Assembly: GCA_002328495.1 (NCBI GenBank)
Contig: DCUJ01000009.1
Coordinates: forward strand, 97,180-161,179
Source of the DNA: Sulfurospirillum sp. UBA2217
GTDB lineage: Bacteria; Campylobacterota; Campylobacteria; Campylobacterales; Sulfurospirillaceae
DNA length: 64,000 nucleotides
Reading direction: 5' to 3'
In this document: positions 20,847-59,270 of the stretch, in pieces
Numbering within the stretch: the first letter of the stretch is position 1
Layout: every line of letters starts with the position of its first letter
Notes under the pieces: model-generated
What the model saw: the letters and a program-made list of their open reading frames with translations, nothing else
Told to the model about the DNA's origin: nothing
The model's database searches: none
Made by a program: the position numbers and the translations under genes

Positions 20847-20885
20847 GAGGTGTTACATGTAAAAAGGTAACACCTCTTCTTTTTA
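20847..20885 (+). terminator. Rho-independent terminator containing TTACATGTAA
   Basis: GAGGTGTTAC-atgtaaaaag-GTAACACCTC followed by TTCTTTTT. Confidence 0.85.
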
Positions 20886-20967
20886 AATGCTTTTTAACCT
20901 TGATTATCATACGATTTTTATACCGCATCGTTACACTAAAGCAAAATAAAATTCGTAAGGATACCCC

Positions 20968-23808
20968 ATGACACTCTCTGGCTCTTATCTTGAATTTCAC
21001 CATGAAATTGCAGCGTTTATCCCAAAAACGAGGATATTTACCGATCCTTTACATACGATAGCCTATGGTACGGATGCCTCTTTTTACAGACTCATCCCTA
21101 AAGTGGTTGTGTGGGTGAGCAGTGCTGATGAGGTGAGTAAGATTCTTAAAATTAGCTCTAAATTTTCACTTCCAGTGGTCTTTCGTGCAGCAGGTACGAG
21201 TCTTTCTGGGCAAGCCATTACGGATTCCATTTTATTGGTAACTTCACGTGATTGGAGAGGGATTAAAGTCAATAAAGATGTAAGCCTTGTCACCCTTGAA
21301 CCCTCCGTTGTAGGAGCCGATGCGAATGTTTATTTATTGCCTTATGGTAAAAAAATTGGTCCTGATCCTGCGAGTATTGGTGCGGCGATGATTGGTGGAA
21401 TTGCTGCTAATAATGCGAGTGGTATGTGTTGTGGAACGGTAGATAACTCGTATAAAACCTTACAATACATGAAAATTGTATTTCACGATGGCACAGAGCT
21501 TGATACAGGTTCAGAACAAAGTATTGCTGCATTTAAACAAAGTCATAAAGAACTTGTGGATGCCGTTGATACCTTGGCTAAACGCACCAAAGCGAACCAA
21601 TCACTTCACGATAAAATTGCCCGTAAATTTAAAATTAAAAATACTTGTGGTTATAGCCTCAATGCCGTGATTGATTTTGAAGATCCTATTGATGTCATTG
21701 CTCACTTAATGATAGGCAGTGAGGGAACCTTGGGATTTATTAAAGAAATTACTTTTAGAACGGTTCCTGAGTACAAAGATAAAGCCAGTGCTTTGATGAT
21801 CTTCAAAAATGTGAAAGATGCGTGTGATGCGGTTATCGTAATGCGTACACAATGCAAAACCCGTATGGCAGATGCTGAGGTTGATGCCGCAGAGATGATG
21901 GATCGAGCTGCACTAAGAAGCGTGGAAGACAAAGAGGGTATGCCTGCCTTTTTGAAAACACTAAGCCCCACGGCAACCGCTGTTTTAGTTGAAACCAGAG
22001 CGCCAAATGATGAAGCTTTAAATGCCAATATTGCGGTGATTTTAGAAAAACTTAAACACATTGAACCTGAGATGCCTCTACATTTTACCAAAGATGTATA
22101 CGAATACACCAAATATTGGAAAATCCGTAAAGGTCTTTTTACCGCGGTGGGTGCAGCGCGTGAGAGTGGTACGACGTGTATCATCGAAGACGTGGCGTAT
22201 CCGATTGAATCTTTGGCAGATGCAACCTTAGAGCTTCAAGAATTGTTTGTAAAATACGGTTATACTGAAGCCATTATTTTTGGACATGCGTTGGACAGCA
22301 ACCTTCACTTTGTGTTTAACCAAACCTTTGATGACCCAAAAGAGATTGCGCGTTACGAATCTTTTATGCAAGAAGTGGCAGACCAAGTAGCGACCAAGTA
22401 CCATGGAAGCCTCAAGGCAGAACACGGTACAGGACGTAATATGGCGCCGTTTGTTGAGCTTGAATGGGGCAGTGATGCGTATGAACTCATGAAAGAGATC
22501 AAAGATATTTTTGACCCTAAAGGACTCATCAATCCAGGTGTCATCATCAATGCAGACCCCAAAATTCACCTTAAAAACTTCAAATCCATGCCTATCACCG
22601 ATGAATTGATCGATAAATGTATTGAATGCGGTTTTTGTGAGCCAACGTGTCCTTCTAACTTTTTAACGCTTACGCCGCGTCAGCGCATCGTTGCTAATCG
22701 TCACATGGTGACCCTTAAAAATCAAAATGATACCGCAGGTTTGGAAGCGTTTGTGGAGCAGTACCAATACGATGGTATTGAAACATGTGCAACGTGTTCA
22801 CTGTGTTCACTCACTTGTCCGGTTGGAATTGACACGGGTTCTTTAACTAAAAAATTACGTGCACATCAAATCGGCTCGTTTGGGCACAGTGTGGCAGGTT
22901 TTATGGCCAACAATTACGGTGGCATTTTAAAAACAGGAAGTGTCGCACTCTCATTGGTTAAAGGGGTGAATGCCATCATTCCTGATAGTATGATGCGAGG
23001 TATGAGTGAGGGCTTACGAAGTCTCACTAAAAATGCCATGCCTTTATGGTCGACCAGTTTACCAGCAGGATACAGTTTCAATCCAAGTGTCAAGCGCACA
23101 GGCTCAGCGGATAAAGTCGTCTATTTTTCTTCATGTATCAACCGTACTATGGCGAATCCAAAAGAAAAAAATGGTGAAAAACCACTTGATTTGGTCATTA
23201 TCGGTATTTTGGAAAAAGCAGGATACGATGTCATCATCCCTAACAACGTGGGTGCACTGTGTTGTGGGATGCCTTTTTCAAGCAAAGGGTATAAAGAAGA
23301 GGGTAAACGAAAATCGGACGAACTTGAAAAAGCCTTAAGAGAAGCTAGCGAAAACGGCAAATACCCCATTTTATGTGATATGAGTCCTTGTAGCAAAACG
23401 ATGTCCGCCAACTTCTCTCCTGATGTTAAAATCAACGATACGGTTGAATTTATTTTAGACTATTTGGTCGAACGAGTGGAAATCAAACCTATTGATGAAC
23501 CCATTGTGATTCACACAACGTGCAGTACACGAAAAACTGGCCTAGCGGATAAATTTGAAAAAATTGCGCGTATGTGTAGCACCAAAGTAACGGTTCCCAC
23601 CGATGTAGGCTGTTGTGGTTTTGCGGGGGATCGTGGATTTACATTCCCTGAACTCAACAAATCAGCCCTGCGCCATCTTAAAGCATCTATTCCTAGTGAT
23701 ACCAAACTAGCTTTTTCTACGAGTAAGACCTGTGAAATAGGTTTAAGTGAAGAGAGTGGGCTGGATTATCGTTCTATTTTCTATCTTGTGGAACGTTGTA
23801 TTAACTAA
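20968..23808 (+). CDS. FAD-linked, Fe-S-containing D-lactate dehydrogenase (Dld-II type)
   Basis: YGTDASFYRLIP, FRAAGTSLSGQA, GPDPAS...IGGIAANNASGMCCG, KAEHGTGRNMA, CIECGFCEPTCP, CATCSLCSLTCP and C-terminal CCG domains. Confidence 0.88.
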   Translation: MTLSGSYLEFHHEIAAFIPKTRIFTDPLHTIAYGTDASFYRLIPKVVVWVSSADEVSKILKISSKFSLPVVFRAAGTSLSGQAITDSILLVTSRDWRGIKVNKDVSLVTLEPSVVGADANVYLLPYGKKIGPDPASIGAAMIGGIAANNASGMCCGTVDNSYKTLQYMKIVFHDGTELDTGSEQSIAAFKQSHKELVDAVDTLAKRTKANQSLHDKIARKFKIKNTCGYSLNAVIDFEDPIDVIAHLMIGSEGTLGFIKEITFRTVPEYKDKASALMIFKNVKDACDAVIVMRTQCKTRMADAEVDAAEMMDRAALRSVEDKEGMPAFLKTLSPTATAVLVETRAPNDEALNANIAVILEKLKHIEPEMPLHFTKDVYEYTKYWKIRKGLFTAVGAARESGTTCIIEDVAYPIESLADATLELQELFVKYGYTEAIIFGHALDSNLHFVFNQTFDDPKEIARYESFMQEVADQVATKYHGSLKAEHGTGRNMAPFVELEWGSDAYELMKEIKDIFDPKGLINPGVIINADPKIHLKNFKSMPITDELIDKCIECGFCEPTCPSNFLTLTPRQRIVANRHMVTLKNQNDTAGLEAFVEQYQYDGIETCATCSLCSLTCPVGIDTGSLTKKLRAHQIGSFGHSVAGFMANNYGGILKTGSVALSLVKGVNAIIPDSMMRGMSEGLRSLTKNAMPLWSTSLPAGYSFNPSVKRTGSADKVVYFSSCINRTMANPKEKNGEKPLDLVIIGILEKAGYDVIIPNNVGALCCGMPFSSKGYKEEGKRKSDELEKALREASENGKYPILCDMSPCSKTMSANFSPDVKINDTVEFILDYLVERVEIKPIDEPIVIHTTCSTRKTGLADKFEKIARMCSTKVTVPTDVGCCGFAGDRGFTFPELNKSALRHLKASIPSDTKLAFSTSKTCEIGLSEESGLDYRSIFYLVERCIN

Positions 23809-23824
23809 TTTTCTTAACATCCTT

Positions 23825-23856
23825 TAAAGGCAAATTCAGCGTTTTGGATTTGCCTT
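23825..23856 (+). terminator. Terminator after the lactate dehydrogenase gene
   Basis: AAAGGCAAAT...ATTTGCCTTT followed by pyrimidines. Confidence 0.7.
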
Positions 23857-23969
23857 TCTTCTGCTCGTTTATAACTTTTTCCTAAGGTTTTCTTTAATAA
23901 TAAAAATGCTAAAATACTAAACTTTTCACTACAGCTTTTAGTTAAAATTAAACAAAAAGGGTTGGTTGC

Positions 23970-24218
23970 ATGGAGATTAATCTCATTGCGGAGTCCGTGA
24001 AATTCCTTATCTTAGGGATGTCCACAGTTTTTATGTTTTTGGTGCTCATGGTTTTTGTTTTGGAACTCCAATCCAAGATAATTATGAAGTTTTTCCCTCC
24101 TAAAAAAGAGGAAGACTCTACCGCTTGTAATTCTACTTCAGAATTATCTCGAAACGGTAACTTAGCAGTTGTTGCAGCCATTGCTGCATCTCTTAAATCG
24201 TATAAACAATCAAAATAG
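23970..24218 (+). CDS. oadG: Na+-translocating decarboxylase gamma subunit
   Basis: N-terminal TM with GMSTVFMFLVL and C-terminal VVAAIAASL. TGcTAAAAT promoter at 23907-23915. Confidence 0.9.
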   Translation: MEINLIAESVKFLILGMSTVFMFLVLMVFVLELQSKIIMKFFPPKKEEDSTACNSTSELSRNGNLAVVAAIAASLKSYKQSK

Positions 24219-24236
24219 GATAAAGGGTAACGTAAG

Positions 24237-26054
24237 ATGGGTAAAAAATACATCGATGTGATGGATACAACGTTTAGAGATGGGTTTCAGTCGGTCTTTG
24301 GTGGGCGCGTACTGATGGATGATTTTTTACCAGCAGTGGCAGCAGCAAGAGATGCTGGTATTAGCCATTTTGAATTTGGAGGCGGAGCTCGTTTTCAAAG
24401 CCTCTATTTCTACCTCAATGAAGATGCCTTTGAGATGATGGACAAGTTTCGTGCGATTGCAGGCCCTGATGCGAATCTTCAAACCCTAGCACGTGGTGTT
24501 AATACCGTAATGCTTGATACAGGCAATCGTGAGCTCATCGACCTTCATGCTAAAATGTTTAAAAAGCATGGTACAACAACCATTCGTAACTTTGATGCGC
24601 TGAATGATGTGGAAAACCTCAAGTACAGTGGAGAATGTATCGTTAATCATGGTTTGAAACATGAAATTGTGGTCACCATGATGGATTTACCTCCTGGATG
24701 CAAGGGTGCGCATGATGTGGCATTTTATGAAAAAACCCTTCGTGAAATTTTAGATTCAGGGATTCCTTATCACAGTGTTTGCTTTAAAGATGCCAGTGGA
24801 ACTTCTAGCCCTCAAAAAGTATACGAAACGCTCCAAATGGCACGTAAGCTTTTACCTGATGGAACCCATTTGCGTCTTCACACCCATGAAACAGCAGGTG
24901 TATCGGTCGCATGTTATCTAGCAGCGCTTGAAGCGGGCGTGGATGGCATCGATATGGCAGCAAGCCCTGTGAGTGGTGGAACAAGCCAGCCAGACATCTT
25001 AACCATGCTTCACGCAGTTAAAGGTAAAGCCTATGATTTAGGTGGATTAGAACTTGAAAAAATCCTCAAATACGAAGAAGTCTTGCAAGAGTGTTTAAAA
25101 GATTATTTTATGCCTCCCGAAGCAACCCAAGTTTCTCCACTTATTCCTTTTTCTCCAATGCCAGGTGGTGCGCTCACGGCAAACACCCAAATGCTACGCG
25201 ATAACAACATCCTTCATAAGTTCCCAGAAGTCATCAAAGCGATGCGTGAAGTGGTTGAAAAGGGTGGATATGGCACCAGTGTAACCCCTGTTTCTCAATT
25301 TTATTTCCAGCAAGCTTTTAACAACGTGATGTTTGGACCATGGAATAAAATCGCCGAAGGCTATGGCAAGATGGTGTTAGGCTATTTTGGAAGAACTCCT
25401 GTTACTCCAGATAAAGAGATTGTAGATCTTGCCAGTAAGCAACTCAAGCTTGAACCTACCACTAAAAATGCTATGGATTTAGCCGATGCAGATGAAACAA
25501 AGTCTTTATTACATGTAAAAGAGATTTTACAAAAAGAACGTATTGAAATTACCGATGAGAGCCTTTTTATTGCCGCTTCATGTAAAGAAAAAGGCATCGC
25601 ATTTCTAAAAGGTGAAGCTAAGGCAAATGTACGTAAAAATGCCCCTGAAAAAGCAGAAACTGCTTCTGATGTTTCTACCTTTACTGTTAGTGTCAATGGT
25701 CAAAAGTATCATGTTACATCTGAAAATGGTGCAAAAACAATGCTCATTAACGGTGAAGTGTATGAGATAGATATTAAAGAAGGTTTGGAAGAAGGTGTTC
25801 TCAGCGCTCCAAGTACTGCGGTATCAGGTCCATCAGCAGCGACGGGGTTTGAAGTAAAAGCGGGACTTCCAGGGTCCATCTTTAAAGTCTTGGTGAATGT
25901 GGGAGATAGTGTTTCAGCGGGACAAGCATTAGTTATTATTGAAGCTATGAAAATGGAAATAGAAGTTACAGCACCACAAGCAGGTGTCGTGAGTGCGGTT
26001 AAAGTGAAGCAAGGCGATACCATCGTCAATAACCAACTGCTCGTTATTTTATAA
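24237..26054 (+). CDS. oadA: Oxaloacetate decarboxylase alpha / carboxyltransferase-biotin carrier subunit (PycB/OadA)
   Basis: DTTFRDGFQS, FKDASG, HTHET, PMPGGALT, TSVTPVSQ and a biotinyl domain with EAMKM. Confidence 0.9.
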   Translation: MGKKYIDVMDTTFRDGFQSVFGGRVLMDDFLPAVAAARDAGISHFEFGGGARFQSLYFYLNEDAFEMMDKFRAIAGPDANLQTLARGVNTVMLDTGNRELIDLHAKMFKKHGTTTIRNFDALNDVENLKYSGECIVNHGLKHEIVVTMMDLPPGCKGAHDVAFYEKTLREILDSGIPYHSVCFKDASGTSSPQKVYETLQMARKLLPDGTHLRLHTHETAGVSVACYLAALEAGVDGIDMAASPVSGGTSQPDILTMLHAVKGKAYDLGGLELEKILKYEEVLQECLKDYFMPPEATQVSPLIPFSPMPGGALTANTQMLRDNNILHKFPEVIKAMREVVEKGGYGTSVTPVSQFYFQQAFNNVMFGPWNKIAEGYGKMVLGYFGRTPVTPDKEIVDLASKQLKLEPTTKNAMDLADADETKSLLHVKEILQKERIEITDESLFIAASCKEKGIAFLKGEAKANVRKNAPEKAETASDVSTFTVSVNGQKYHVTSENGAKTMLINGEVYEIDIKEGLEEGVLSAPSTAVSGPSAATGFEVKAGLPGSIFKVLVNVGDSVSAGQALVIIEAMKMEIEVTAPQAGVVSAVKVKQGDTIVNNQLLVIL

Positions 26055-26066
26055 AAGAGTTATGAT

Positions 26067-27368
26067 ATGAAAAAGATGATTCTTCAGCTTCTCCTTGTGT
26101 TGAGCCTTGGCACCTATTTGTGTGCGAGTGATGGCATAAAAGAGAACAAAAACCAAGAGTATAAGTCGAAAAGTGTTTCTGAATTGTTTGGCTCTTTATA
26201 TGAGTCTACAGGGTTAAATGCTTTTCTCAGTCCAAAAGAGGGGGAAGTATCTCACGGCGTTGTTGTCTCAACCTTTAATCAAAGCGGTGGACGTTTGATT
26301 ATGATGGCAATTTGCTTTGCACTCTTTTATTTAGCGATTGCTAAAGGGTTTGAGCCATTGTTATTGATTCCGATAGCTTTTGGTGGATTTTTAGCCAATA
26401 TTCCTATAGCAGATATTGCAGGACCTGAAGGCTTTTTGGGCATACTCTTTAATATGGGCGTGAGTACTGGGCTTTTCCCTTTGCTTATTTTTATGGGTGT
26501 GGGTGCCATGACAGACTTTGGACCTCTTTTAGCCAATCCAAAAACAGCACTTTTAGGAGGGGCTGCTCAATTTGGGATTTTTGGAACCATTGTGGGTGCT
26601 GCTTTTTTATCACAGTACACAGGTTTTATAGATTTTTCACTCAAAGAAGCGGCAGCAATTGGTATTATCGGTGGAGCCGATGGCCCGACGTCTATCTTTG
26701 TGGCTAGCCGTTTAGCACCCGATTTGCTAGGAGCCATTGCCGTGGCTGCGTATTCGTACATGGCATTGGTTCCTATTATCCAGCCACCCATTATGAGAGC
26801 ACTTACCACCAAAGAAGAGCGACAGATTAAGATGGAACAGTTACGTGAAGTCTCAAAGCTTGAAAAAATTCTTTTTCCAATTACCGTTATGGTTTTATGT
26901 GTATTACTCCTTCCTGATGCAACACCGCTTGTTGGTGCATTGGCTTTTGGAAATTTTGTGAAAGAATCGGGTGTAGCTAAGCGTCTTTCGGAGACGATGG
27001 AAAACTCACTCATTAACATCGTCACCATCTTTTTAGGTCTGTCTGTAGGTTCAAAGCTTGCTTCTGAGAAGTTTTTGGTTCCTGAGACCTTGGGCATTAT
27101 TGTTTTAGGTCTGGTAGCTTTTGCGATGGGAACCGCTGGTGGAGTCATTATGGCAAAGATTATGAACAAATTTAGTAAGCATAAAGTTAACCCTTTAATT
27201 GGCTCAGCAGGAGTGAGTGCGGTGCCTATGGCGGCGCGTGTGTCCAATAAAGAAGGGATGAAGGAAAATCCAAGCAATATGCTCTTAATGCATGCTATGG
27301 GTCCCAATGTCGCGGGTGTTATCGGCTCAGCAGTTGCAGCAGGAATTTTGCTGTCCATTTTTAAATAG
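26067..27368 (+). CDS. oadB: Na+-translocating decarboxylase beta subunit
   Basis: [71 protein letters not shown]. Confidence 0.96.
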
Positions 27369-27389
27369 TAAGACAAAGGTAAAAATATC

Positions 27390-28967: not shown

Positions 28968-28970
28968 TGC

Positions 28971-29012
28971 TTACATGTAAAGAGATTTGAGAAAATCTCT
29001 TTACATCTTTTT
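28971..29012 (+). terminator. Terminator built from TTACATGTAA after pckA
   Basis: ATGTAAAGAGATTT-gaga-AAATCTCTTTACAT (14-bp stem) followed by CTTTTT. Confidence 0.85.
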
Positions 29013-29035
29013 GACCTATTCCAAGGAGATTTTGT

Positions 29036-30421: not shown

Positions 30422-30425
30422 AGTG

Positions 30426-30542
30426 TTACATGTAAGGAGAAAATTCTCCTTACATCTTAGATTTTGCAAAACTCTAGACACGTCTTTAAGGCAAAGCCTT
30501 AAAGACTACGTTAACACTGGGTTCTCTCACGCAGAGTGCCCA
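30426..30542. terminator. Hairpin cluster between convergent argH and hit
   Basis: ATGTAAGGAGA/TCTCCTTACAT (30430-30455), GTCTTTAAGGC/GCCTTAAAGAC (30482-30506) and an imperfect TGGG..CTCT/AGAG..CCCA (30518-30542). Confidence 0.75.
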
Positions 30543-48237: not shown

Positions 48238-48241
48238 CCCA

Positions 48242-50649: not shown

Positions 50650-50655
50650 AAAGCG

Positions 50656-50686
50656 TTACATGTAAAGAGTGATTTTCACTCTTTAC
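50656..50686. terminator. Bidirectional terminator between MCP and mutS-HNH, starting from TTACATGTAA
   Basis: GTAAAGAGTGA-ttt-TCACTCTTTAC, overlapping the mutS stop codon. Confidence 0.8.
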
Positions 50687-53610
50687 TTCTCTTCAAAATG
50701 CAATTTCAATCCATCACTGCTCATCACAAAACCACTAATGGTGATTTTACCCTCATGCACCATTTTATGATGTTTGGAACACAGCGGAATAAGATTGAAA
50801 CGATGATTTTGGTGAAAATGTTCAATTTGACCATGCTCATTGGCACTCTCTTGCGCTTTGATGTGATGCACTTCATCGACGTATTCATCGCACAGAGCGC
50901 ATTTAGAGAGGTAGAGGTTTTTGTTGTATTTACTGCGTTTTTTCTGTTTTAAAAGCTCCACATCACCCAGTTCTCCTGCTAAGTGTCGCCTGATATCATA
51001 CGCCATTTTGATAAACTCTTTATCCATGTGCAAGGACTTCGCAAACTCCAAGCCATAAAGCGAGCTTCCACTGCCAAGCTCTAATTTTCGGTTGTAAAGC
51101 AGTCTATCGTTCTCTTCATCGTAGCTCACACCCAAATGCAAAGGGATGACTTTTGTAAGCTCTTTCATGAGACGTAAGTGTCCTAGTTGGTGCAAATGAG
51201 TCGCAAAAACAAACAAAGAACCCAGCGTGTCCATCTTTTTTATCGCACTGGCGACAATGGCTAAAGCCGATTCTGTCTCCGTTCCATGGCTGATTTCATC
51301 GCCCAAAACCAAAGAATTTGGCGTAGCACGGTTGAAAATATTTTTAAGCTCCAGCATCTCAACGGTGAAGGTTGAAAGACCTTTATAGAGATTGTCATGA
51401 CTCATAATGCGGGTAAAAAGCTTATCAAAGAGGCTAAAGCGCAAACTCGCACACGGAACAAAAAAGCCCGATTGTGCCATGATGACTGCCATACCCAGGC
51501 TTTTCATGAGTGAAGACTTACCGCTAGAGTTGATACCATACAGCAAGATACCTTGTACCTCAGGCGCATCGGTGGCTTCAAGGGTGATGTGATCGTGCGT
51601 GATGCTCTCTTTTCGTGTGCCCAAAAAGAGGTCATTGGGGATATAAATGCCATTTTCTTCACGGGATTCGATGAGCGGATGACGCAGTCCGATAGCTTCC
51701 ACAAAACGCTCCCCCGTAGGGCAAAGTTCAGGGCGGACGTAGTTGAAAAGAGAGGCGCATTTGGCGTTGCTAAGAGCCACATCAAGTGTGCCAACAAACG
51801 CGATGAGGTGCTCTAGGGTGAGGGCATAGTGGGTTTCGATTTTCTCTAGCATCTCATCATAACGCTCTTTGACGAGGGCTATCATCTGCATGTTGCTGAG
51901 GCTGATTTCTTGTGAAATCTCTTCAATCAAGGAAGCGGATATCTTCACACTGTTTTTAAGATGTCTAAAGGTAAAGTCTTTGAAAAAGTAGTGTTTTTCA
52001 CCAATGGTGATAAAGCTTTGCATGAGCTTCTCTTCAATCAACGCAAAACGGTTTTTACTAAGACTGATATAATGCCCCTCGCTCTCCAACCACTCGATGC
52101 TAATCGTTGAGCGATTGTTCTCTTCAAAAAAACTTTCTATGGTTTTAGCAATACGTTCTAATGCGCTAAAACGCTCTTTTTTAGCCTGTTCGATTTTATC
52201 AATCTGTGGATAGACCCCTTTGACAAAAAGGTTTTCGCTGATTTGGTCTTTGCGAAATTTAGCGCAACTGTCTAAGAGAAAGGTATTTTGAAGCATCAAA
52301 AAGAGGGCTTCACTTTCATCAAAGAGCTCTTTGGGTGTGGGGATTTTTTTAAATTGTGCCTCTTTTAAAATGCCCAAGATTGCCTCAAGTGAGGTGCTTA
52401 AATAATCAAGCTCCAAAGGATGCAGTTTTTTCAAAGCAATGCGCCTTAAAATGCGCTCCAAATCGTACACTTGCTTGAGGGCAATTTCAAATTTTTTATA
52501 CTCTTTCATCAGCTGTGTGCTCAAATCAAAACGCTCGTTAAGGGTTTTGATATCGCAGATGGGATTGAGCAAACGCTCTTTTAGCAGACGTTTTCCAATC
52601 GCCGTTGAGGTCTGGTCGATAAGATTTAAGAGCGTCATCTCGTTAGGGTTTCGTGAGATGATATCCAGTTGTTCAAGGGCGTTGTTGCCTAAATAGAGGT
52701 AACGACTGTTGCCCACCAAAATAGGACGGCTCATCTTCTCAATGATGTTCGCATCGTGTTCGATGATAAAATCGCACAAAATCGCCAACGATTCACTCGC
52801 ATAGGGGTAACGTTCAATGTCTAAGTACTCAATGGGAGACAGAAGCGAGCGAATGGCGTAAATACGTGCAAAAAGCTCATTTTGGTAGGTGATTTTGAGG
52901 CGTGTTTTATTGAGGCTGTGCGATACACTTTGGTTGATTTCAAGGTAGTTTTGCACCCACTCTTTATCGATGGATTCGGAGTTAAACGTGAGGACGACTT
53001 CACTGGTTTTATAGGTTTGCAAGAGATTGAATATTTCATCCAGAGCATAGGTTTTATCTTCTCTGGTGCCATGCACTTCGTTGATGATGGTCTTTCCTGT
53101 ACTCACATCAATGGCAGCATACCCCACCGAGTAAATCTGATGGTTACAGTCAATGAGGAGTGAGACAAGGTAGTTTTCACTCGACTCCATCACATAATCA
53201 AAATTGGTTCCAGGGCTGATGATGTTAGCAATGTAGCGTTTGACATGGGGCGGTTCACCCTTTTGGCGCACTAAAACGATGGTGTATTTTTTACTCTGAA
53301 CGAGGCGTGAGAGGTAACGCTCCAAAGAAACAGAAGGAATGCCAGCCAGCAGAGGATTTTGTAAGGAATTTTCGATGATGGATTTGTTTTTACGGGTGAG
53401 TTGGATGTTTAAAAGTTCACTCACCTCTTTGGCTTTACCGATTTGATGGGTTTCGTTATTGACTTCATAGGTTTCAAAAAAAGAGCCAATTTCCATAAAG
53501 ACAATGGTGTTTTTGCCATATTTTTCTTCAAAAAAGAGTTGTAAATCAAAATAGATTTCGCTTAAGAGCTTCTCTTTGGCGTTTAATAATTTGGCTATAT
53601 TTTCGAGCAT
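50683..53610 (-). CDS. MutS-family mismatch-recognition ATPase fused to a C-terminal HNH endonuclease (MutS7 type)
   Basis: Domain [12 protein letters not shown] (Phe-X-Glu), DLERILRR, Walker [43 protein letters not shown] and C-terminal CALC...EVHHI...[14 protein letters not shown]. Confidence 0.93.
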
Positions 53611-53715
53611 TGAAACCTTTACATGTAAAAGAAATAAGCTAAATTATACAGAATGGAAGCATAAAAAAAGGGCTTGTTTGATACAATAAAGAGACTATTT
53701 TTGAAGGATATTTTT

Positions 53716-54126
53716 ATGGAAATTGAAATTTCTACCCCCGCACTGCTTTTTCCCGCAGTCTCGCTTTTATTGCTCGCATATACCAACCGTTTTTTGGCTA
53801 CAGCTCAACTCATTCGCTCTCTTCATCGTCAAAAACAAGAGCGTGAAAACTGCGATGAATACTTGCAAATTGAAAACCTAAAGCATCGCTTGGAGCTAAC
53901 CAAATGGATGCAATTTTTTGGCGTACTCTCCATTTTACTCTGTACCCTATCCATGTTTCAACTTTTTTTAGGCTACCTTGATTTGGGTAAAAAAGTCTTT
54001 GGCTTGAGCCTTTTGGTCATGTGTGCATCACTCTTTATCTCGTTATGGGAAGTGCTCATCTCTACCAAAGCCCTTAATCTTGAACTGAGCGACATGCACG
54101 ATAAATGCAAAGTGAGCAAAAAATGA
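53716..54126 (+). CDS. DUF2721-like membrane protein
   Basis: STPALLFPAVSLLLLAYTNRF...QI..LKHRL...SLWEV.IST.ALN. Confidence 0.85.
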   Translation: MEIEISTPALLFPAVSLLLLAYTNRFLATAQLIRSLHRQKQERENCDEYLQIENLKHRLELTKWMQFFGVLSILLCTLSMFQLFLGYLDLGKKVFGLSLLVMCASLFISLWEVLISTKALNLELSDMHDKCKVSKK

Positions 54127-54962
54127 ACCAGTACTTACTCGTAGGCGAAGTCAATCGCCTTAAAATCAACCGCTACACGGACAACGGCGTTTATCTTATC
54201 TGTACTGACAATGACGAAGTGCTCATGCCCAATCAATACGTTACGTATGGAATGAAAGAGGGCGATGAAATTGACGTGTTTGTCTATTTTGACTCGGAAG
54301 ATCGTATCGTGGCAAGTACGGTGTTTCCTAAAGCCATGTTAGACCAATTTGGCTGTTTTGAAGTGGTCGATGTCACCTCTTTTGGGGCATTTTTGGATTG
54401 GGGTTTGCCCAAAGATTTACTCGTACCCAAAGCGCTTCAAAAGTTTCCCTTTTATGTGGGGATGAAAGTGGTGGTGCGGGTCTGTTTGGACGATGAGAGC
54501 GGACGCATCATCGGAAGCCAAAAGTATAACGATGATTTGAGTAAGGATTTAAAATCACTCAAACTCAAACAAGAGGTCAACCTTTTGGTGAGAGAGCGCA
54601 CACCCCTTGGCTTTAAAGTGATTGTCAATAACCTCTACGATGGGATGATTTTTCACAATGAGATTTTTGAGAGCATCGAAGTGGGAGATGAAAAAAAAGG
54701 CTTTATCAAAACCTTACGACCCGATGGAAAGCTTGACATCATCTTGCAACCCGTGGGAGATAAAAGCGATGAATTTGCGATGCAAAAGGTCTTAGAACTT
54801 CTTAGCCTCACGGGAGGGGTGAGTGATTTGACCTATAAAAGTGAGCCTGAGGAGATTTCACAGCGTGTTGGTCTTAGTCGTAAAGCCTTTAAACGTGCCC
54901 TTACGAAACTTATCGACGCTAAAAAAATTGAAGTGACGTTAGAAGGTATGCGGCTGTTATGA
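54123..54962 (+). CDS. CvfB-family S1-domain RNA-binding protein
   Basis: VFVYFDSEDRIVAST, FGAFLDWGLPKDLLVP, GMIFHNEIF, LRPDGKLD, GLSRKAFKRAL. Confidence 0.92.
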   Translation: MNQYLLVGEVNRLKINRYTDNGVYLICTDNDEVLMPNQYVTYGMKEGDEIDVFVYFDSEDRIVASTVFPKAMLDQFGCFEVVDVTSFGAFLDWGLPKDLLVPKALQKFPFYVGMKVVVRVCLDDESGRIIGSQKYNDDLSKDLKSLKLKQEVNLLVRERTPLGFKVIVNNLYDGMIFHNEIFESIEVGDEKKGFIKTLRPDGKLDIILQPVGDKSDEFAMQKVLELLSLTGGVSDLTYKSEPEEISQRVGLSRKAFKRALTKLIDAKKIEVTLEGMRLL

Positions 54963-56176
54963 ACGTAGCGATTATCGGAGGAGGAGCGTCGGGACTGGTC
55001 TGTGCTATTGAAGCAGCACGAGGGGGACATCGTGTCAGCGTGTTTGAAAAAAATGCCAAACTGGGGCGCAAAATCTTAGCTACGGGAAATGGCAAGTGCA
55101 ATATCTCCAATCTTCACTTAAATCCCACTCGCTATCATGGGGAATTTCCACAGTTTGTCACGCCTATTTTAAAACGCTTTAATACCCTTACATGTAAAGA
55201 TTTTTTTCGCACACTTGGTCTTGAGATGCGTGAGGGTGAAGCGGGAAGACTTTACCCCATGAGCCATCATGCGTCAAGTGTTGTGGATATCTTGGTGCAT
55301 GAGGCTAGAGAGCTTGGTGTGAAGTTTTTGTGTGAAAGCGAAGTGAAACGCATAGCACACAAAGGTGAGCAGTTTGAGTTACATGTAAACGACCAAACCT
55401 CCCTTTTTGATGCGTGTGTCATCGCCTCAGGAAGCTTTGCGTATCCGAGTTTAGGAAGCTCTGGAAGTGGCTATGCGTTTGCAAAATGCTTGGGTCATAC
55501 CGTGATAGAACCCTACCCAACGTTGGTGCAACTCTTAAGCGATGAAGCACACCTAAGCCTTGCCAATGGGGTCAAGATAGACGCTGGCGTAGAGCTGTTT
55601 GTGAGTGGTACGATGAGGCAACGGGTGCAAGGCGATGTCTTGTTTACCACCTATGGACTCTCAGGTTCTGCTATCTTAGATATCAGCCGTGCTGCCTCAC
55701 GCGCATGTGTCGAAAATGAGCCGTCGTGGGTCGTGCTTGATCTGCTCCCAACCTTTAGCAAAGAAGCCGTGCAATCCTTACTTCAAAAACGCTTAGCCTA
55801 CGCAGGGAAAAAATCACTCATTTTATGGCTAGAGGGCATCATTCCTAAAAAATTGGCACTTTTTCTCATTCATGCTAACACATTAGAACACCTCACATCC
55901 GCCTCACTCCTAAGCCCAAAAGAGCTTAAAAGACTCTGCTTTTCGCTGAAGGCATTACGCTTACATGTAAAGGGAACCAAAGGCTTTGAAAGTGCCGAAG
56001 TGTGCTCTGGAGGCGTGGATGTCAGAGAAGTGGATGAAAAAAGTTTGATGTCAAAAAAAGTGAAAAATCTCTACTTTTGTGGGGAAGTCTTAGACATCGA
56101 TGGGGATTGCGGAGGGTTCAATCTGCACTTTGCGTGGGGTTCGGGCTACGTGGTAGGACAGAGCATCAAAGCGTAG
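54959..56176 (+). CDS. HI0933/YhiN-family flavoprotein oxidoreductase
   Basis: IIGGGASGL, GRKILATGNGKCNISN, GRLYP, LFTTYGLSGSAIL, AEVCSGGV, GEVLDIDGDCGGFNLHFAWGSG. Confidence 0.95.
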   Translation: MNVAIIGGGASGLVCAIEAARGGHRVSVFEKNAKLGRKILATGNGKCNISNLHLNPTRYHGEFPQFVTPILKRFNTLTCKDFFRTLGLEMREGEAGRLYPMSHHASSVVDILVHEARELGVKFLCESEVKRIAHKGEQFELHVNDQTSLFDACVIASGSFAYPSLGSSGSGYAFAKCLGHTVIEPYPTLVQLLSDEAHLSLANGVKIDAGVELFVSGTMRQRVQGDVLFTTYGLSGSAILDISRAASRACVENEPSWVVLDLLPTFSKEAVQSLLQKRLAYAGKKSLILWLEGIIPKKLALFLIHANTLEHLTSASLLSPKELKRLCFSLKALRLHVKGTKGFESAEVCSGGVDVREVDEKSLMSKKVKNLYFCGEVLDIDGDCGGFNLHFAWGSGYVVGQSIKA

Positions 56177-56600
56177 TCTTTTCTTTTTTAAGAAAAACCA
56201 GTCGTATATTTTTATAAAAGATGATAGGCGCAACGACCATACAGACTATAAGTCCATAAGGAACGTAAAAAAAACCTGCGATATTGCCTTCTACGGGGAG
56301 TGAAAATGCCACAAAAAGGGCTACCGTAGGCATTCCCCAACGATGATTTTTGAGAAATGAAAGCCATAATTCTTGTGGATTGAACTCCCTTTTTTGCCAA
56401 CGCATTAATGCTTTTAAAAGCAGAAAACGAAGGTATAAAAAGAGTAAAAGAAGTCCCCAAAAAAAAGGTATATTGACCCATCTGACATTGGTTTCGATGT
56501 AATACGAAAAATGCGAATGCGCAATAAAAAAGCCTAGCATGACATAAAAAGGATGTGCGCTTAGAGCATAAAACGTCCATAAAAGGGTTGAGAGTTTCAT
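56166..56600 (-). CDS. Hypothetical membrane protein
   Basis: Hydrophobic ORF with AAGGAG RBS before MKLSTL and a TGcTACAAT promoter upstream. Confidence 0.7.
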   Translation of the reverse strand: MKLSTLLWTFYALSAHPFYVMLGFFIAHSHFSYYIETNVRWVNIPFFWGLLLLFLYLRFLLLKALMRWQKREFNPQELWLSFLKNHRWGMPTVALFVAFSLPVEGNIAGFFYVPYGLIVCMVVAPIIFYKNIRLVFLKKEKTTL

Positions 56601-56740
56601 AGAGCGCACTCCTTAAAATCTTTTGGGCATTGTAGCAAAAAAGAGAAGTTTCGTGTATGCGAATTGTTTCACCGTAGACTCACAGTTACTCTCTAAAATG
56701 GCACAAATGTTTGTTGTTTTATAGCTAATTGAGGTTTATT

Positions 56741-56824
56741 ATGACGACAATCATCGATGCAAAGAGCGCTATGGGGGGCATCATGCACTACCACCATGGG
56801 CACAAGAGGCATGATGAACGCTAG
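56741..56824 (+). CDS. Putative 27-aa His-rich small protein
   Basis: MTTIIDAKSAMGGIMHYHHGHKRHDER. GAGG RBS 6 nt upstream and TAAAAT at 56694-56699. Confidence 0.4.
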   Translation: MTTIIDAKSAMGGIMHYHHGHKRHDER

Positions 56825-56831
56825 AAATATC

Positions 56832-57338
56832 TTACTTCTTTGGCTTCATAATCATAAAAACAATCAAGGCAAAAAGTCCCACCATCAAAAGGGTGAAAAG
56901 CCATGAAAAACTTTTGACAATGACATAGGTGACAATGAGAATGGAAAGCAAGGTGGGGACTTCGTTGTAGGCTCGGAAAAATTTCCCACTTTTGGTACAC
57001 AGATTGCAGGCTAATTGAACGCGAAAGTATTCGAGTGAAAATGAATACACGCTAAGTAAAAGGGCGATAAAAAGCTTGGCATCCAGCCAAAATCCAGTTT
57101 GAAATAAGATGGGATTGAGGCTTAACATCGCAACACCGCTGATAAGTGTCGCCCAAAAAGCAGGAAGACCGATGAATGTGTAGATTTTGTATTCTTGGAT
57201 TTTAACGACTTCGACAAACTCTTTTTTGTGGGCATATTCGACATGGTAGACAAATAAACGTGGTAGGTAAAAGAGCATTGCCATCCATGACATGACTGAC
57301 ATAATGTGAAATGTCACAATCCAACTGTAGTATTGCAT
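56832..57338 (-). CDS. hemJ: Protoporphyrinogen oxidase HemJ
   Basis: FHIMSVMSWMAMLFYLPRLFVYHVE, WLDAKL, FFRAYNEVPT. Confidence 0.93.
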   Translation of the reverse strand: MQYYSWIVTFHIMSVMSWMAMLFYLPRLFVYHVEYAHKKEFVEVVKIQEYKIYTFIGLPAFWATLISGVAMLSLNPILFQTGFWLDAKLFIALLLSVYSFSLEYFRVQLACNLCTKSGKFFRAYNEVPTLLSILIVTYVIVKSFSWLFTLLMVGLFALIVFMIMKPKK

Positions 57339-57396
57339 ACAAAGCTCCCTCAAAAATATGCGTAATGTAGCACAGATTGAGGGATATTTTTAGGGC

Positions 57397-57729
57397 TTAC
57401 TTTGAAATTGTGATGAGTTTATAATAACCCAAGAAGAGAAGGGAGGCACATTTTAAGCAATAGTAAAAAAAATCTTTTGGTGCGACATAGAGGATGATTC
57501 GAAACTCTTTTATGGTACGAGCTTTGAGCTGTAGCCAACAAAATCGAAACAAAGAAAAACGATTTTTGCGGTGGAGTAAAAATGCTGTGTGCGGATAAGA
57601 GGCGATAGCCATCATCTCTTCAATGCGATTACTCACCAAAAGAGTGCCTTTTTGCGCGCTTACATGTAAGGCTTCGTGCGTGGACATGATAAGCGGTTTA
57701 AGACGTCCCTTTTCAAAGCAATACAGCAT
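57397..57729 (-). CDS. Hypothetical protein
   Basis: 110 aa. ATG directly after the upstream gene's stop, with AAGGAG RBS. Confidence 0.6.
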   Translation of the reverse strand: MLYCFEKGRLKPLIMSTHEALHVSAQKGTLLVSNRIEEMMAIASYPHTAFLLHRKNRFSLFRFCWLQLKARTIKEFRIILYVAPKDFFYYCLKCASLLFLGYYKLITISK

Positions 57730-59145
57730 CTAAGCTCCTTTTCGAACAGCACGGATGAGGTTGTTTGCCATCCCTTTGAAGACAAAAAAATGTAAAGGGA
57801 TAAGTACAAACCAATAAAGCCTTCCAGCTAATCCATGCGGGTAAAAGTAAGCGGTTTGGTAAAAATGCCCCTCTTGAATGAGAAATTCTAACCATGCAAT
57901 GCCAGGAAGCTTCATCTGCGCAAAGAGCAAGAGGCGTTTCCCCTCTTGCAAATCCACTACCTTCCAAAAATCGACACTATCGCCGATGCGTAAATGCAAA
58001 GGATCTCGTCTACCACGGGAGAGTCCATAGCCACCCACAAGTTTGTCAATAGCCCCTCGCATACGCCACAAAATATCAAAACCAAACCAGCCACGTTTAC
58101 CGCCTACACTGCAAAACATTTGGTAAACATCTGGTGCTTCGCTTGGAGCGATGGCGATGATTTGTCGGTCTGAAAAAATGGCATTGGCAAGGTCATTGTG
58201 GTTGACTTCCCACGCATGACCTGAAGCGTCTGACCAACGGCTGATGACTTGTTCATGTTTGATTTCATCGACAGCGTTTGCGACGGCTTCTTCGTACGAG
58301 ATGGGAATGATGGTTGGGAACAGTGTGCGTGCATGGTCATTTTTGATAAGTACCTCACTCTTAAGTCCTTCGATAAGTGCGGAAGCAATAGAATAGGGTA
58401 CGGGCGTCATGAGGGTGAGCCAATACGAGGAGAGTTTTGGCGTAAAAAAAGGTACAGGAATAAGCGTTCGACGAAGTCCTACGACGTTAGCATAGCCCAA
58501 GAGAAGTTCTTTATAAGAGAGCACTTGGGAGCCAATATCGATGATGGTATTGCCCGTTTTGGGTAAAAAAGCTGCAAGGCAAAGGTATTCTATCACATCG
58601 TTTTGTGCACTGGGTTGGCAGAGTGTATTGACCCATTTTGGAGTGATCATAAAAGGGAGCTTCTCGACCAAATGGCGGATAATTTCAAAACTAGCAGACC
58701 CAGAGCCTATGATAACGCCCGCACGAAACCACAGGGTTTCAATGGCATCGGGACGTGAACTTAGAACTTCACCCACTTCGATGCGTGAGAGTAAGTGCTC
58801 ACTGGCACTCTGTTTTTCGCCAAGCCCCCCAAGATAAACAATACGCTTTACGCCTTGCATGATACATGCGTCCAAAAAGTTTTGAGCACTTTGTCGATCG
58901 CGTTCGCGGTAGTTGGCACTCTCCATCGAATGAATCAAATAATACGCTACATCAATGCCTTGAAGGGCAGCATTGAGACTGGGAATATCAAAGGTATTGC
59001 CCGTACACACTTCGATACCATCTTTAACAGATGAACTTTTGTCTCGTTTCATAAAAAGCCTAAGTGTGCCCTCTTTTTCACTCGATAAACGGTGCTTAAG
59101 CCGTCTTCCGATATACCCAGTAGCCCCTGTGATGAGAATGTTCAT
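57730..59145 (-). CDS. SDR/NAD(P)-binding protein with DUF2867 C-terminal domain (YbjT-like)
   Basis: ILITGATGYIG, VAYYLIHSM, IVYLGGLG, HLLSR, FRAGVIIGSGSASFE, LRIGDSVDFWKV, AQMKLPG.AWLEF, G..GRLYW. Confidence 0.92.
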   Translation of the reverse strand: MNILITGATGYIGRRLKHRLSSEKEGTLRLFMKRDKSSSVKDGIEVCTGNTFDIPSLNAALQGIDVAYYLIHSMESANYRERDRQSAQNFLDACIMQGVKRIVYLGGLGEKQSASEHLLSRIEVGEVLSSRPDAIETLWFRAGVIIGSGSASFEIIRHLVEKLPFMITPKWVNTLCQPSAQNDVIEYLCLAAFLPKTGNTIIDIGSQVLSYKELLLGYANVVGLRRTLIPVPFFTPKLSSYWLTLMTPVPYSIASALIEGLKSEVLIKNDHARTLFPTIIPISYEEAVANAVDEIKHEQVISRWSDASGHAWEVNHNDLANAIFSDRQIIAIAPSEAPDVYQMFCSVGGKRGWFGFDILWRMRGAIDKLVGGYGLSRGRRDPLHLRIGDSVDFWKVVDLQEGKRLLLFAQMKLPGIAWLEFLIQEGHFYQTAYFYPHGLAGRLYWFVLIPLHFFVFKGMANNLIRAVRKGA

Positions 59146-59232
59146 AGCGTATCCTTTTCATAGCATTATAAACCGATACGCAAATCATTGGTAGTTTGAA
59201 ATTGGCTTTTCATAGAAGAGGGAGGATGGGCT

Positions 59233-59270
59233 AATGGATAGTAAGCCTACATGTAAGCTTACTATCCATT
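59233..59270. terminator. 14-bp hairpin whose loop is the motif variant CTACATGTAA
   Basis: AATGGATAGTAAGC-ctacatgtaa-GCTTACTATCCATT. Confidence 0.85.

What the first reader, a model, noticed from the sequence alone, without database searches (positions are those of the whole stretch)
20847..59270. The palindrome is built into transcription-terminator hairpins, like DUS/USS inverted repeats
Seen: about 9 of 26 perfect copies lie in intergenic DNA that makes up only about 5% of the window. Six hairpins just after stop codons use the motif. At 47032-47070 both arms are the motif. At 28975-29006 and 30430-30455 the left arm starts inside the motif and the right arm ends TTACATCTT, a shared design. 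At 50662-50686 the stem starts in the motif. At 20847-20876 it spans arm and loop. At 59233-59270 a one-mismatch copy is exactly the loop of a 14-bp stem. Established: paired uptake sequences forming rho-independent terminators are the hallmark of Neisseria DUS and Haemophilus USS. Inference: this favours a selected or drive-propagated signal over random palindrome bias.
Basis: partly seen in the sequence, partly recalled or inferred. Interest (0 to 1): 0.8.

Follow-up and report, generated by a model that had tools for sequence, protein, structure and literature searches.

The report
Genome-signature palindrome built into 3'-end hairpins
A ten-letter DNA palindrome kept about 300 times more often than chance in this probable Sulfurospirillum genome sits preferentially in the stem-loops that follow genes, as DNA-uptake sequences do in Neisseria and Haemophilus, but what keeps the word there is still unknown.

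Summary
The palindrome is TTACATGTAA. It has 26 copies in the window and 934 in the 2.42-Mb genome, against about 3 expected. Nine of the 26 window copies lie in the 5% of the window that is intergenic, and all six named hairpins are real and stable.

Genome-wide, intergenic stems of at least 10 bp cover 4.4% of intergenic bases but hold 27% of intergenic copies. These hairpins lie almost only at gene 3' ends.

A motif-poor congener keeps hairpins at the same sites without the motif. Two window hairpins show compensatory changes across species. So the hairpins are selected in their own right and the word rides in them, as DUS and USS do.

Only about a quarter carry a T-tract, so "rho-independent terminator" fits a minority.

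The word occurs throughout the genus. Its positions are conserved among motif-rich species, it has decayed in two nested species, and it is scarce in islands. Something therefore maintains it actively. Whether that is DNA uptake is untested. No conserved methylase or Vsr was found, and dprA is broken in this strain.

The scan had already found this word in other Sulfurospirillum genomes.

The parts
20847..20876 (+). Hairpin A. GAGGTGTTAC / GTAACACCTC with a 10-nt loop. The motif (20853-20862) spans the arm end and the loop. The tail is TTCTTTTT. It lies 20 nt after the stop of the TRAP dctM-like gene.
   Evidence: (-14.8 kcal/mol, z -4.3). The gene cluster and the hairpin are absent from the five congeners sampled.
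28975..29006 (+). Hairpin B. A 14-bp stem after pckA, with the motif at 28971-28980 overlapping the 5' base of the stem. The tail is CTTTTTG, so this is a canonical intrinsic-terminator form.
   Evidence: -16.4 kcal/mol, z -6.0. It is conserved in six species, with 5 of 11 pairs showing compensatory changes and none broken in the core. It is kept without the motif in G011.
30430..30455 (+). Hairpin C. An 11-12-bp stem after argH, with the motif at 30426-30435 at the 5' base. The tail is CTTAGATTTT.
   Evidence: -14.9 kcal/mol. Four congeners carry a different hairpin (GAAGAGGT...ACCTCTTC) at this place, so the motif form is a replacement in the G000/G024 lineage.
47032..47070 (+). Hairpin D. 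Two motif copies (47033-47042 and 47060-47069) form the arms of a 15-17-bp stem 3 nt after the stop of the RND permease half-gene. There is no T-tract.
   Evidence: -18.2 kcal/mol, z -7.9. Both copies are conserved in all five congeners, including the motif-poor G011 and G001.
50662..50686 (.). Hairpin E. An 11-bp stem between convergent genes (an MCP on + and mutS7 on -), with the motif at 50656-50665 at one base. The mutS7 stop codon lies in the other arm.
   Evidence: -13.9 and -14.2 kcal/mol on the two strands. It is conserved in five species, with 4 of 10 pairs compensatory. In G011 the unpaired half of the motif has decayed while the stem is kept.
59233..59270 (-). Hairpin F. A 38-nt near-perfect palindrome with 14-bp arms around the one-off copy CTACATGTAA. 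It lies 13 nt after a 62-aa ORF on the minus strand.
   Evidence: -23.3 kcal/mol on -, -21.1 on +. The region is specific to G000.
5107..5116 (.). An intergenic copy 11 nt after a stop codon and directly before the next gene's AAGGA ribosome-binding site. It is not in a hairpin.
17691..17700 (.). An intergenic copy 45 nt after a stop codon, at the upstream edge of the strain-specific TRAP cluster.
53619..53628 (.). An intergenic copy in the divergent spacer upstream of mutS7. It overlaps a TTTACA hexamer that resembles a -35 element.
   Evidence: It is conserved only in G024.
1010..62188 (.). Seventeen copies inside ORFs: 1010, 1899, 2462, 3317, 6906, 10515, 25509, 34380, 35049, 36770, 42989, 49714, 55188, 55379, 55961, 57660, 62179.
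   Evidence: Most are conserved at the same positions in the motif-rich congeners G024, G015 and G016, and have diverged in G011 and G001.

Best explanation
TTACATGTAA is a genome-wide signature word of the genus, which is very probably Sulfurospirillum. Its core is TACATGTA and its extended form is C-T/C-TTACATGTAA-A/G-G with AT-rich shoulders. Some process that acts on the DNA word itself keeps it in place.

Shown: the stem-loops that follow genes are separately selected structures. A minority look like intrinsic terminators. The rest are 3'-end hairpins without a U-tract.

Inferred: a stem only has to pair, so a palindrome costs nothing there, and the word accumulates in these hairpins in three ways:
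- at the apex of a longer palindrome;
- as two copies forming the two arms;
- as a half-site at the base of the stem.
The motif is therefore a passenger in 3' hairpins, the same relationship that DUS and USS have with terminators.

Inferred only, the maintaining force. My odds are:
- a sequence-specific step in DNA exchange (uptake or recombination of 'self' DNA): about 0.4;
- a HIP1-like process (methylation, repair or nucleoid-linked): about 0.25;
- an abundant DNA-binding protein with another role: about 0.15.
For: Abundance and sharpness:
- 934 sites against about 3 expected.
- One-off variants are enriched only at the outermost position.
- Flank preferences are the same in coding and intergenic copies.

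Taxon specificity and maintenance:
- All 24 congeners sampled hold 49-1496 copies. Other genera of the order hold 6 or fewer.
- Window sites are conserved in 14 of 15 (G024), 15 of 19 (G015) and 10 of 13 (G016) cases, against 8-13% for random aligned 10-mers.
- In G011, which is nested among motif-rich species (89% MutS7 identity), only 9 of 361 mapped sites survive. No replacement word exists there.
- The largest motif-free gaps are low-GC islands. One is a Tn7-like insertion with 1 copy in 34.5 kb.

The hairpins are selected independently of the motif:
- Stems of at least 10 bp occur in 67.5% (G000) and 52.5% (G011) of convergent spacers, 17.8% and 14.9% of tandem spacers, and 9.5% of divergent spacers in both.
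- Where G000 has a motif hairpin, G011 has a hairpin of at least 10 bp in 48% of cases. The figure is 38% where G000 has a non-motif hairpin and 9.4% where G000 has none.
- Arm changes are compensatory, for example TTACGTGTAA paired with TTACACGTAA.
- Hairpins B and E show covariation.

Colonisation of the hairpins:
- Density is 10.5 per kb inside hairpins and 1.26 per kb elsewhere in intergenic DNA.
- Stems of at least 10 bp occur at 29% of intergenic copies but only 5% of coding copies of the same palindrome.
- There is an excess of pairs 19-22 bp apart.
- Hairpin C is a lineage-specific replacement of a non-motif hairpin.

Parallel in the literature: about 55% of high-confidence Neisseria terminators contain the DUS, with long stems and fewer tail thymines (PMC1852404).
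Against: - No uptake, recombination, methylation or binding assay exists for this word. No paper in the library describes it.
- Known uptake sequences are not palindromes, and their one-mismatch variants are also enriched. Here they are not.
- dprA is split by a transposon in this strain.
- ComEC is present in every genome of the order, whether or not it has the motif, so it does not correlate.
- The hairpin statistics rest on my own crude ORF-based gene calls and a simple inverted-repeat finder, not on TransTermHP or transcript ends.
- The motif-poor comparison uses one genome, of which I hold 56%.
- Part of the hairpin enrichment is circular, because a palindrome seeds stems. The coding-copy and G011 controls reduce this problem but do not remove it.
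Confidence: 0.6

Rival explanations
1. HIP1-type palindrome. The word is created and kept by a methyltransferase-linked biased repair ratchet, or serves nucleoid organisation. Its presence in hairpins is only a by-product of low constraint.
For: - It is a palindrome found in both coding and non-coding DNA.
- Positions are conserved, as for HIP1 (PMC5861425).
- Loss in nested lineages without a replacement word resembles HIP1-poor cyanobacteria.
- An earlier scan note (e1-4447405) claims that a solitary enzyme methylates CATG in cultured Sulfurospirillum.
Against: - This genome has no Vsr and no D12-class methylase.
- It has no small solitary N6/N4 methylase in any ORF of at least 150 aa.
- It has no homologue of the adenine methylase on the Sulfurospirillum plasmid.
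- Its three C5 methylases have no close orthologues in the genus. The complete genomes G018 and G022, each with more than 1200 copies, have no C5 methylase at all.
- MutS7 is present in motif-poor species and in other genera.
Confidence: 0.25
2. The word's primary function is in the RNA or DNA hairpins themselves, as a dedicated terminator, processing or protein-binding element. Coding copies would then be incidental.
For: - Eight-fold enrichment in intergenic hairpins.
- Placement a median of 9-12 nt after stop codons.
- The pair at 47033/47060 is kept even in motif-poor species.
- Close pairs are relatively better retained in G011: 8 of its 49 copies lie in pairs.
Against: - 70% of copies are inside genes, with the same flanks and the same positional conservation.
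- G011 keeps the hairpins but not the word.
- Motif hairpins are no richer in T-tracts than other hairpins.
- The motif shows no orientation bias relative to transcription.
Confidence: 0.07
3. It is the binding site of an abundant dimeric DNA-binding protein, such as a nucleoid-associated or global regulatory protein, unrelated to DNA exchange.
For: - A 10-14-bp perfect dyad with AT-rich shoulders at 9-13 bp from the centre.
- An all-or-none core.
- Preferred pair spacing of 19-22 bp, about two helical turns.
- Some copies overlap promoter-like hexamers, for example at 53618.
Against: - Copies are rarest, among spacer types, in divergent (promoter) spacers, and commonest after stop codons.
- No bacterial regulator I know of has about 1000 exact sites with no graded variants.
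- No candidate protein was identified.
Confidence: 0.1
4. It is a REP/REPIN- or MITE-like mobile palindrome spread by a transposase.
For: Paired copies form hairpins in extragenic DNA, which resembles REPIN doublets.
Against:
- Sequence information stops about 2 bp beyond the 10-mer, apart from the AT-rich shoulders.
- Orthologous sites differ by substitutions, not insertions.
- Positions are conserved between species that differ by about 25% at the nucleotide level.
Confidence: 0.03

Closest known systems
DNA uptake sequences in terminators: Neisseria DUS (GCCGTCTGAA) and Pasteurellaceae USS (AAGTGCGGT)
   Same: - A short exact word at roughly one per 1-3 kb.
- Restricted to one taxon and shared by its species.
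- Positions conserved between species.
- Scarce in acquired DNA.
- Present in genes in tolerated frames.
- A strong excess of closely spaced complementary copies forming long-stemmed hairpins just after genes, with relatively weak T-tails (Kingsford et al. 2007, PMC1852404).
- AT-rich flanks, as in the Haemophilus USS.
   Different: - The word is a perfect palindrome, so a single copy can sit at a hairpin apex.
- One-mismatch variants are not enriched.
- It occurs in Campylobacterota, where no uptake sequence is known.
- No uptake preference or receptor has been shown.
- dprA is disrupted in this strain.
- Some congeners have lost the word without gaining a dialect.
HIP1 (GCGATCGC) and alternative highly iterated palindromes of cyanobacteria
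   Same: - A palindromic word, hyper-abundant in coding and non-coding DNA.
- Positions conserved across species.
- One-off variants differ mainly at the outer positions (PMC4390886).
- Lineages with low abundance exist.
- HIP1 has recently been linked to natural transformation efficiency (bioRxiv 10.1101/2024.09.10.611283).
   Different: - It is 10-14 bp and AT-rich rather than 8 bp and GC-rich.
- No conserved cognate orphan methylase was found here.
- The marked concentration in 3'-end hairpins and in close pairs is, to my knowledge, not a reported HIP1 feature.
Methylation-dependent DNA discrimination in Campylobacter jejuni (CtsM, RAATTY); cited from my own knowledge, Beauchamp et al. 2017
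   Same: The same phylum, a palindromic recognition element, and a Cts-type (type II secretion-like) machinery, which this genome also encodes.
   Different: RAATTY is a common 6-mer and is not hyper-abundant. Discrimination there depends on a methylase, and none matching was found here.
REP/REPIN elements mobilised by RAYT transposases
   Same: Extragenic inverted doublets that form hairpins.
   Different: REPs are longer, imperfect, extragenic only and spread by transposition. This word lies mostly inside genes and arises by substitution.

Membership tests
DNA uptake sequence (DUS/USS) | DNA carrying the word is taken up or transformed preferentially by competent cells | not testable with these tools
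   This needs uptake or transformation competition assays.
DNA uptake sequence (DUS/USS) | Hyper-abundant exact word, hundreds to thousands of copies per genome | tested here: met
   934 sites in 2.42 Mb against about 3 expected. It is the most frequent 10-mer.
DNA uptake sequence (DUS/USS) | Restricted to one taxon and shared by its species | tested here: met
   24 of 24 congeners hold 49-1496 copies. Sixteen other genera of the order hold 0-6.
DNA uptake sequence (DUS/USS) | Excess of close complementary copies forming hairpins at gene 3' ends | tested here: met
   26 pairs at 15-30 bp against 5.4 expected. 84 of 92 motif hairpins lie in tandem or convergent spacers. 23 of 70 3' hairpins of at least 10 bp carry the word.
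DNA uptake sequence (DUS/USS) | Host is naturally transformable with an intact machinery | tested here: inconclusive
   Present: ComEC, two pilin genes near it, and a Cts-like cluster (T2SSE ATPase, secretin, pseudopilins). dprA is split by a 34.5-kb Tn7-like element. No report of competence in the genus was found.
DNA uptake sequence (DUS/USS) | Graded signal: one-mismatch variants also enriched (typical of the family, not strictly defining) | tested here: not met
   Variants at the eight inner positions number 115 observed against about 90 expected. Only the outermost position varies: C 54-fold, G 19-fold.
Highly iterated palindrome (HIP1 type) | Palindromic word hyper-abundant in both coding and non-coding DNA, with positions conserved between species | tested here: met
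Highly iterated palindrome (HIP1 type) | Cognate, usually orphan, DNA methyltransferase recognising the inner sequence, present wherever the word is abundant | tested here: not met
   No Vsr, no D12-class and no small N6/N4 methylase. The C5 methylases are strain-specific and absent from the motif-rich genomes G018 and G022. Families outside those searched cannot be excluded.
Rho-independent (intrinsic) terminator | Stable stem-loop directly after the gene | tested here: met
   The six window hairpins fold at -13.9 to -23.3 kcal/mol. Hairpins start a median of 9-12 nt after the stop. Stems are AT-rich, with GC about 0.33.
Rho-independent (intrinsic) terminator | U-rich tract immediately 3' of the stem on the transcribed strand | tested here: not met
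   Only 28% of motif hairpins in tandem spacers have at least 5 T in the next 8 nt, against 9% on the antisense side and 23% for non-motif hairpins. In the window, hairpins A and B have a clear T-tract, C and E a weaker T-rich tail, and D and F none.
Rho-independent (intrinsic) terminator | Transcript 3' ends map to the site | not testable with these tools
REP/REPIN | Extragenic, 20-40-nt imperfect palindromes spread by a RAYT transposase | tested here: not met
   70% of copies are in ORFs. Conserved sequence spans about 14 bp. Orthologous differences are substitutions. The RAYT gene was not searched for.

The most novel reading that the evidence does not exclude
Sulfurospirillum uses TTACATGTAA as a 'self' tag in DNA exchange. 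It would be the first uptake- or recombination-type signal in Campylobacterota and the first palindromic one. Species nested within the genus that have lost the word (49 and 74 copies, against about 1000 in their relatives) would offer a natural experiment for finding the protein that reads it.
Probability: 0.3. Interest if true: 0.85.

Novelty: new variant of a known kind. Interest (0 to 1): 0.62.

Why it matters
Words such as DUS, USS and HIP1 are among the strongest non-coding signals in bacterial genomes. How they arise and what reads them is still debated: the USS receptor is unknown, and so is the function of HIP1.

This case combines features of both classes, being a palindrome like HIP1 and sitting in hairpin pairs at gene ends like DUS and USS. 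It occurs in a culturable genus of a phylum where no such signal has been described. Closely related species have lost it, which makes comparative identification of the machinery and direct uptake, methylome and Term-seq tests feasible.

There is also a practical consequence. In these genomes a third of 3'-end hairpins are made of the word, so terminator and small-RNA predictions will be affected by it.

Tried and rejected
1. m5C / very-short-patch repair drive. Rejected: there is no Vsr. The C5 methylases are strain-specific and absent from two complete motif-rich genomes.
2. MutS7 (the MutS-HNH gene next to hairpin E) as the driver. Rejected: it is present in motif-poor congeners and in other genera.
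3. Loss of ComEC as the explanation for motif-poor species. Rejected: ComEC is universal in the order.
4. A 'dialect' replacing the word in G011, G020 or G001. None was found in 200 kb, 100 kb and 67 kb respectively.
5. A solitary adenine methylase. None was found by catalytic-motif scans of all ORFs. The two large hits were a histidine kinase and an aconitase-like protein. There is no homologue of the pSDCE1 methylase.
6. Differential gene content between G000 and G011, to find the reader protein. 244 genes in 73 synteny gaps were absent, which is too many and mostly islands, and no convincing DNA-binding candidate emerged.
10. A strict terminator scan of my own found only 128 sites, 21 of them with the motif. 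The tool's scan in the window is no richer than shuffles. Canonical terminators are therefore scarce here.
11. A motif-on-the-5'-side design rule. Rejected: 10 against 9.
Full report
**What the motif is.** Reading the six named places shows that the palindrome is TTACATGTAA. The window holds 26 perfect copies against 0.17 expected from dinucleotide-preserving shuffles. The whole 2.42-Mb assembly (13 contigs) holds 934 sites, about one per 2.6 kb on every large contig, and it is the most frequent 10-mer. An order-3 Markov model expects about 3 sites.

The signal is unusually sharp. Single-mismatch variants at the eight inner positions occur at chance level, 115 against about 90. Only the outermost base varies, with C enriched 54-fold and G 19-fold. 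The flanks prefer C then T/C before the word and A/G then G after it, with AT-rich shoulders 4-8 bp out. This holds equally for coding and intergenic copies.

**Organism.** The window carries a purD RNA motif, a family I know from Campylobacterota. The best outside ArgH matches are Campylobacterota MAGs. The word is enriched more than 100-fold on plasmid pSDCE1 of Sulfurospirillum diekertiae, with 4 copies in 39.9 kb against 0.03 expected. Earlier notes of this scan report the same word in other Sulfurospirillum genomes. I therefore take the genus to be Sulfurospirillum.

**Checking the observation.** With an ORF-based gene caller of my own, 9 of the 26 window copies are intergenic, and intergenic DNA is 5.2% of the window. 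All six hairpins have the stated geometry. As RNA they fold at -13.9 to -23.3 kcal/mol, with z-scores of -3.5 to -7.9. The tool's terminator scan picks 28975-29006, 30430-30455 and 50662-50686 as its longest-stemmed hits. The scan as a whole finds no more hits than in shuffled sequence.

**Genome-wide placement.**
- 281 of 934 copies lie in the 7.4% of the genome I call intergenic.
- Density per kb is 3.2 in convergent spacers, 1.7 in tandem spacers, 1.0 in divergent spacers and 0.29 in coding DNA. It reaches about 8 per kb in the first 10 nt after a stop codon.
- Inverted repeats with stems of at least 12 bp overlap 24% of intergenic copies. The figure is 2.7% for random intergenic positions and 2% for coding copies of the same palindrome, so the palindrome's own symmetry does not explain the result.
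- Intergenic hairpins of at least 10 bp cover 4.35% of intergenic bases but hold 76 of 277 intergenic copies. That is 10.5 against 1.26 per kb, p about 1e-38. 57 of 256 such hairpins contain the word.

**Hairpin designs.** Three designs recur:
- the word at the apex of a longer perfect palindrome (35 cases, arms up to 16 bp);
- two copies forming the two arms (about 20-25 pairs);
- a half-site at the base of a stem (about 20-35, depending on the stem cut-off).

Spacing between successive copies is otherwise exponential. It shows 26 pairs at 15-30 bp against 5.4 expected, with a peak at 19-22 bp. Of 92 distinct motif hairpins, 47 are in tandem, 37 in convergent and 8 in divergent spacers. In tandem spacers they start a median of 12 nt after the stop codon and end 70 nt before the next start.

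**Are they terminators?** Only partly.
- In tandem spacers, 28% of motif hairpins have at least 5 T in the 8 nt after the stem on the sense side, against 9% on the antisense side.
- Non-motif hairpins give 23% and 16%.
- Stems are AT-rich, with GC about 0.33.
- A strict hairpin-plus-T-tract scan finds only 128 sites in the genome, 21 of them with the word.
- For single-copy base designs, the motif sits on the 5' side 10 times and on the 3' side 9 times. The 'shared design' seen in the window is therefore not a general rule.

Motif hairpins thus behave like this genome's ordinary 3'-end hairpins, and only a minority of those are canonical intrinsic terminators.

- Of 361 G000 motif sites that map to G011, 9 are intact. 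That is 1.5% of coding sites against 7.7% for random coding 10-mers.
- G011 still has hairpins in the same spacers. Where G000 has a motif hairpin, G011 has a stem of at least 10 bp in 48% of cases. The figure is 38% where G000 has a non-motif hairpin and 9.4% where G000 has none.
- Both genomes have such stems in 67.5% / 52.5% of convergent, 17.8% / 14.9% of tandem and 9.5% / 9.5% of divergent spacers.
- Several G011 hairpins are degenerate versions with compensatory arm changes, for example TTACGTGTAA opposite TTACACGTAA. Others are unrelated replacement hairpins.

For the window's own sites:
- Hairpin B (after pckA) is present in six species with a T-tract in most. It has 5 of 11 pairs with compensatory changes and none broken in the core.
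- Hairpin E (MCP / mutS7) is present in five species, with 4 of 10 pairs compensatory. In G011 only the unpaired half of the word has decayed.
- Hairpin C replaces a different ancestral hairpin in the G000/G024 lineage.
- The pair D is conserved in all five congeners, including the motif-poor ones.
- Hairpins A and F lie in strain-specific DNA.

**The word is actively maintained.**
- All 24 congeners sampled carry it, with 49-1496 copies. Sixteen other genera of the order carry 0-6.
- In syntenic regions at about 70-80% nucleotide identity, window sites are intact in 14 of 15 (G024), 15 of 19 (G015) and 10 of 13 (G016) cases. Random aligned 10-mers are intact in 8-13% of cases. In the motif-poor G011 and G001 only about 3 in 20 are intact.
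- G011 and G020 have 89% MutS7 identity to G000. That equals the motif-rich G015 and G016 and exceeds several other motif-rich species, so the loss is secondary and nested.
- No replacement word exists in the motif-poor genomes.
- The longest motif-free stretches are low-GC islands. The largest lies in a 34.5-kb Tn7-like element, with TnsA, a TnsB-like transposase, TniQ, a type I methylase subunit and an MksE-like protein. That element splits dprA and holds one copy where 13 would be expected.

Against a HIP1-style methylation and repair ratchet:
- There is no Vsr and no D12-class methylase.
- PF01555 gives only a type III Mod, and the N6_Mtase hits are HsdM-like proteins.
- No small N6/N4 methylase exists in any ORF of at least 150 aa.
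- There is no homologue of the plasmid adenine methylase.
- The three C5 methylases lack close orthologues in the genus. Two complete genomes with more than 1200 copies have none.

MutS7 and ComEC do not correlate with the word.

In favour of a link to DNA exchange there is only the pattern. That pattern is taxon specificity, positional conservation, scarcity in islands, AT-rich flanks and hairpin pairs, which together match DUS and USS. About 55% of high-confidence Neisseria terminators contain the DUS, with long stems and fewer tail thymines (PMC1852404). The genome also has machinery: ComEC, pilin genes near it, and a Cts-like cluster with a T2SSE ATPase, a secretin and pseudopilins. HIP1 itself has recently been reported to raise natural transformation efficiency in a cyanobacterium (bioRxiv 10.1101/2024.09.10.611283), so the two analogies may converge.

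Against the exchange reading: the word is a palindrome, it has no graded variants, and dprA is broken in this strain.

**Literature.** No paper in the library mentions TTACATGTAA or TACATGTA as a bacterial genomic word, and none reports competence or a methylome for Sulfurospirillum.

**Previous notes of this scan.** At least eight follow-ups on other Sulfurospirillum genomes reached a 'HIP1- or DUS-like watermark' verdict. The word itself is therefore not new to the scan. New here are:
- the quantified link to 3'-end hairpins;
- the evidence that the hairpins persist without the word;
- the nested motif-poor species;
- the negative methylase inventory.

I found no such gene in this genome.

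**Limits.**
- Gene calls and hairpin detection are my own simple scripts.
- The motif-poor comparison rests on 56% of one genome.
- Kin are not independent.
This prevented the read-based test and the genus-wide presence/absence search for the reader protein.

**Verdict.** The analogy with DUS and USS in terminators is supported for arrangement and evolutionary behaviour. The label 'rho-independent terminator' fits only a minority of the hairpins. The function of the word remains inferred.

Noticed in passing
G000:C8:271524-306878 (outside the window): dprA is split into an N-terminal 111-aa ORF and a C-terminal 162-aa ORF by a low-GC element of about 34.5 kb. The element carries TnsA, a TnsB-like transposase, TniQ, a type I methylase subunit and an MksE-like (Wadjet-type) gene. 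It holds a single motif copy.
   Followed up: partly
G011:C1:2012501-2018409 and 400839-421391: The motif-poor congener has local clusters of the word: 5 copies in 6 kb and 4 in 20 kb. These could be DNA imported from motif-rich relatives.
   Followed up: no
G000:C9:39384-55361 (outside the window): The Cts-like cluster (two pseudopilins, a T2SSE ATPase and a secretin) lies in a 15.9-kb motif-free stretch with GC 0.37. Paired-motif hairpins bound the stretch at both ends.
   Followed up: no
window 17781-20827 and 57397-59471: A TRAP transporter cluster and a second block are absent from all five congeners sampled. Each block has the word, or its one-off form, in the spacer at an edge (17691 and 20853; 59233-59270).
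   Followed up: no
window 50683-53610 (-): A MutS-HNH (MutS7-type) gene whose stop codon lies inside hairpin E. Homologues are present in 23 of 24 congeners and in 8 of 16 other genera of the order sampled.
   Followed up: partly
window 7404-7534 (+): A purD RNA motif (Rfam RF01069, 90.8 bits) upstream of the gene at 7560-8828.
   Followed up: no
window 53618-53647: The motif copy in the divergent spacer upstream of mutS7 supplies a TTTACA hexamer that the promoter scan reads as a -35 element.
   Followed up: no
L187 (Sulfurospirillum diekertiae plasmid pSDCE1) 1917, 20493, 21354, 39643: The plasmid carries four copies of the word. That is about a quarter of the chromosomal density but far above chance. 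One copy lies inside its DNA adenine methylase gene.
   Followed up: partly
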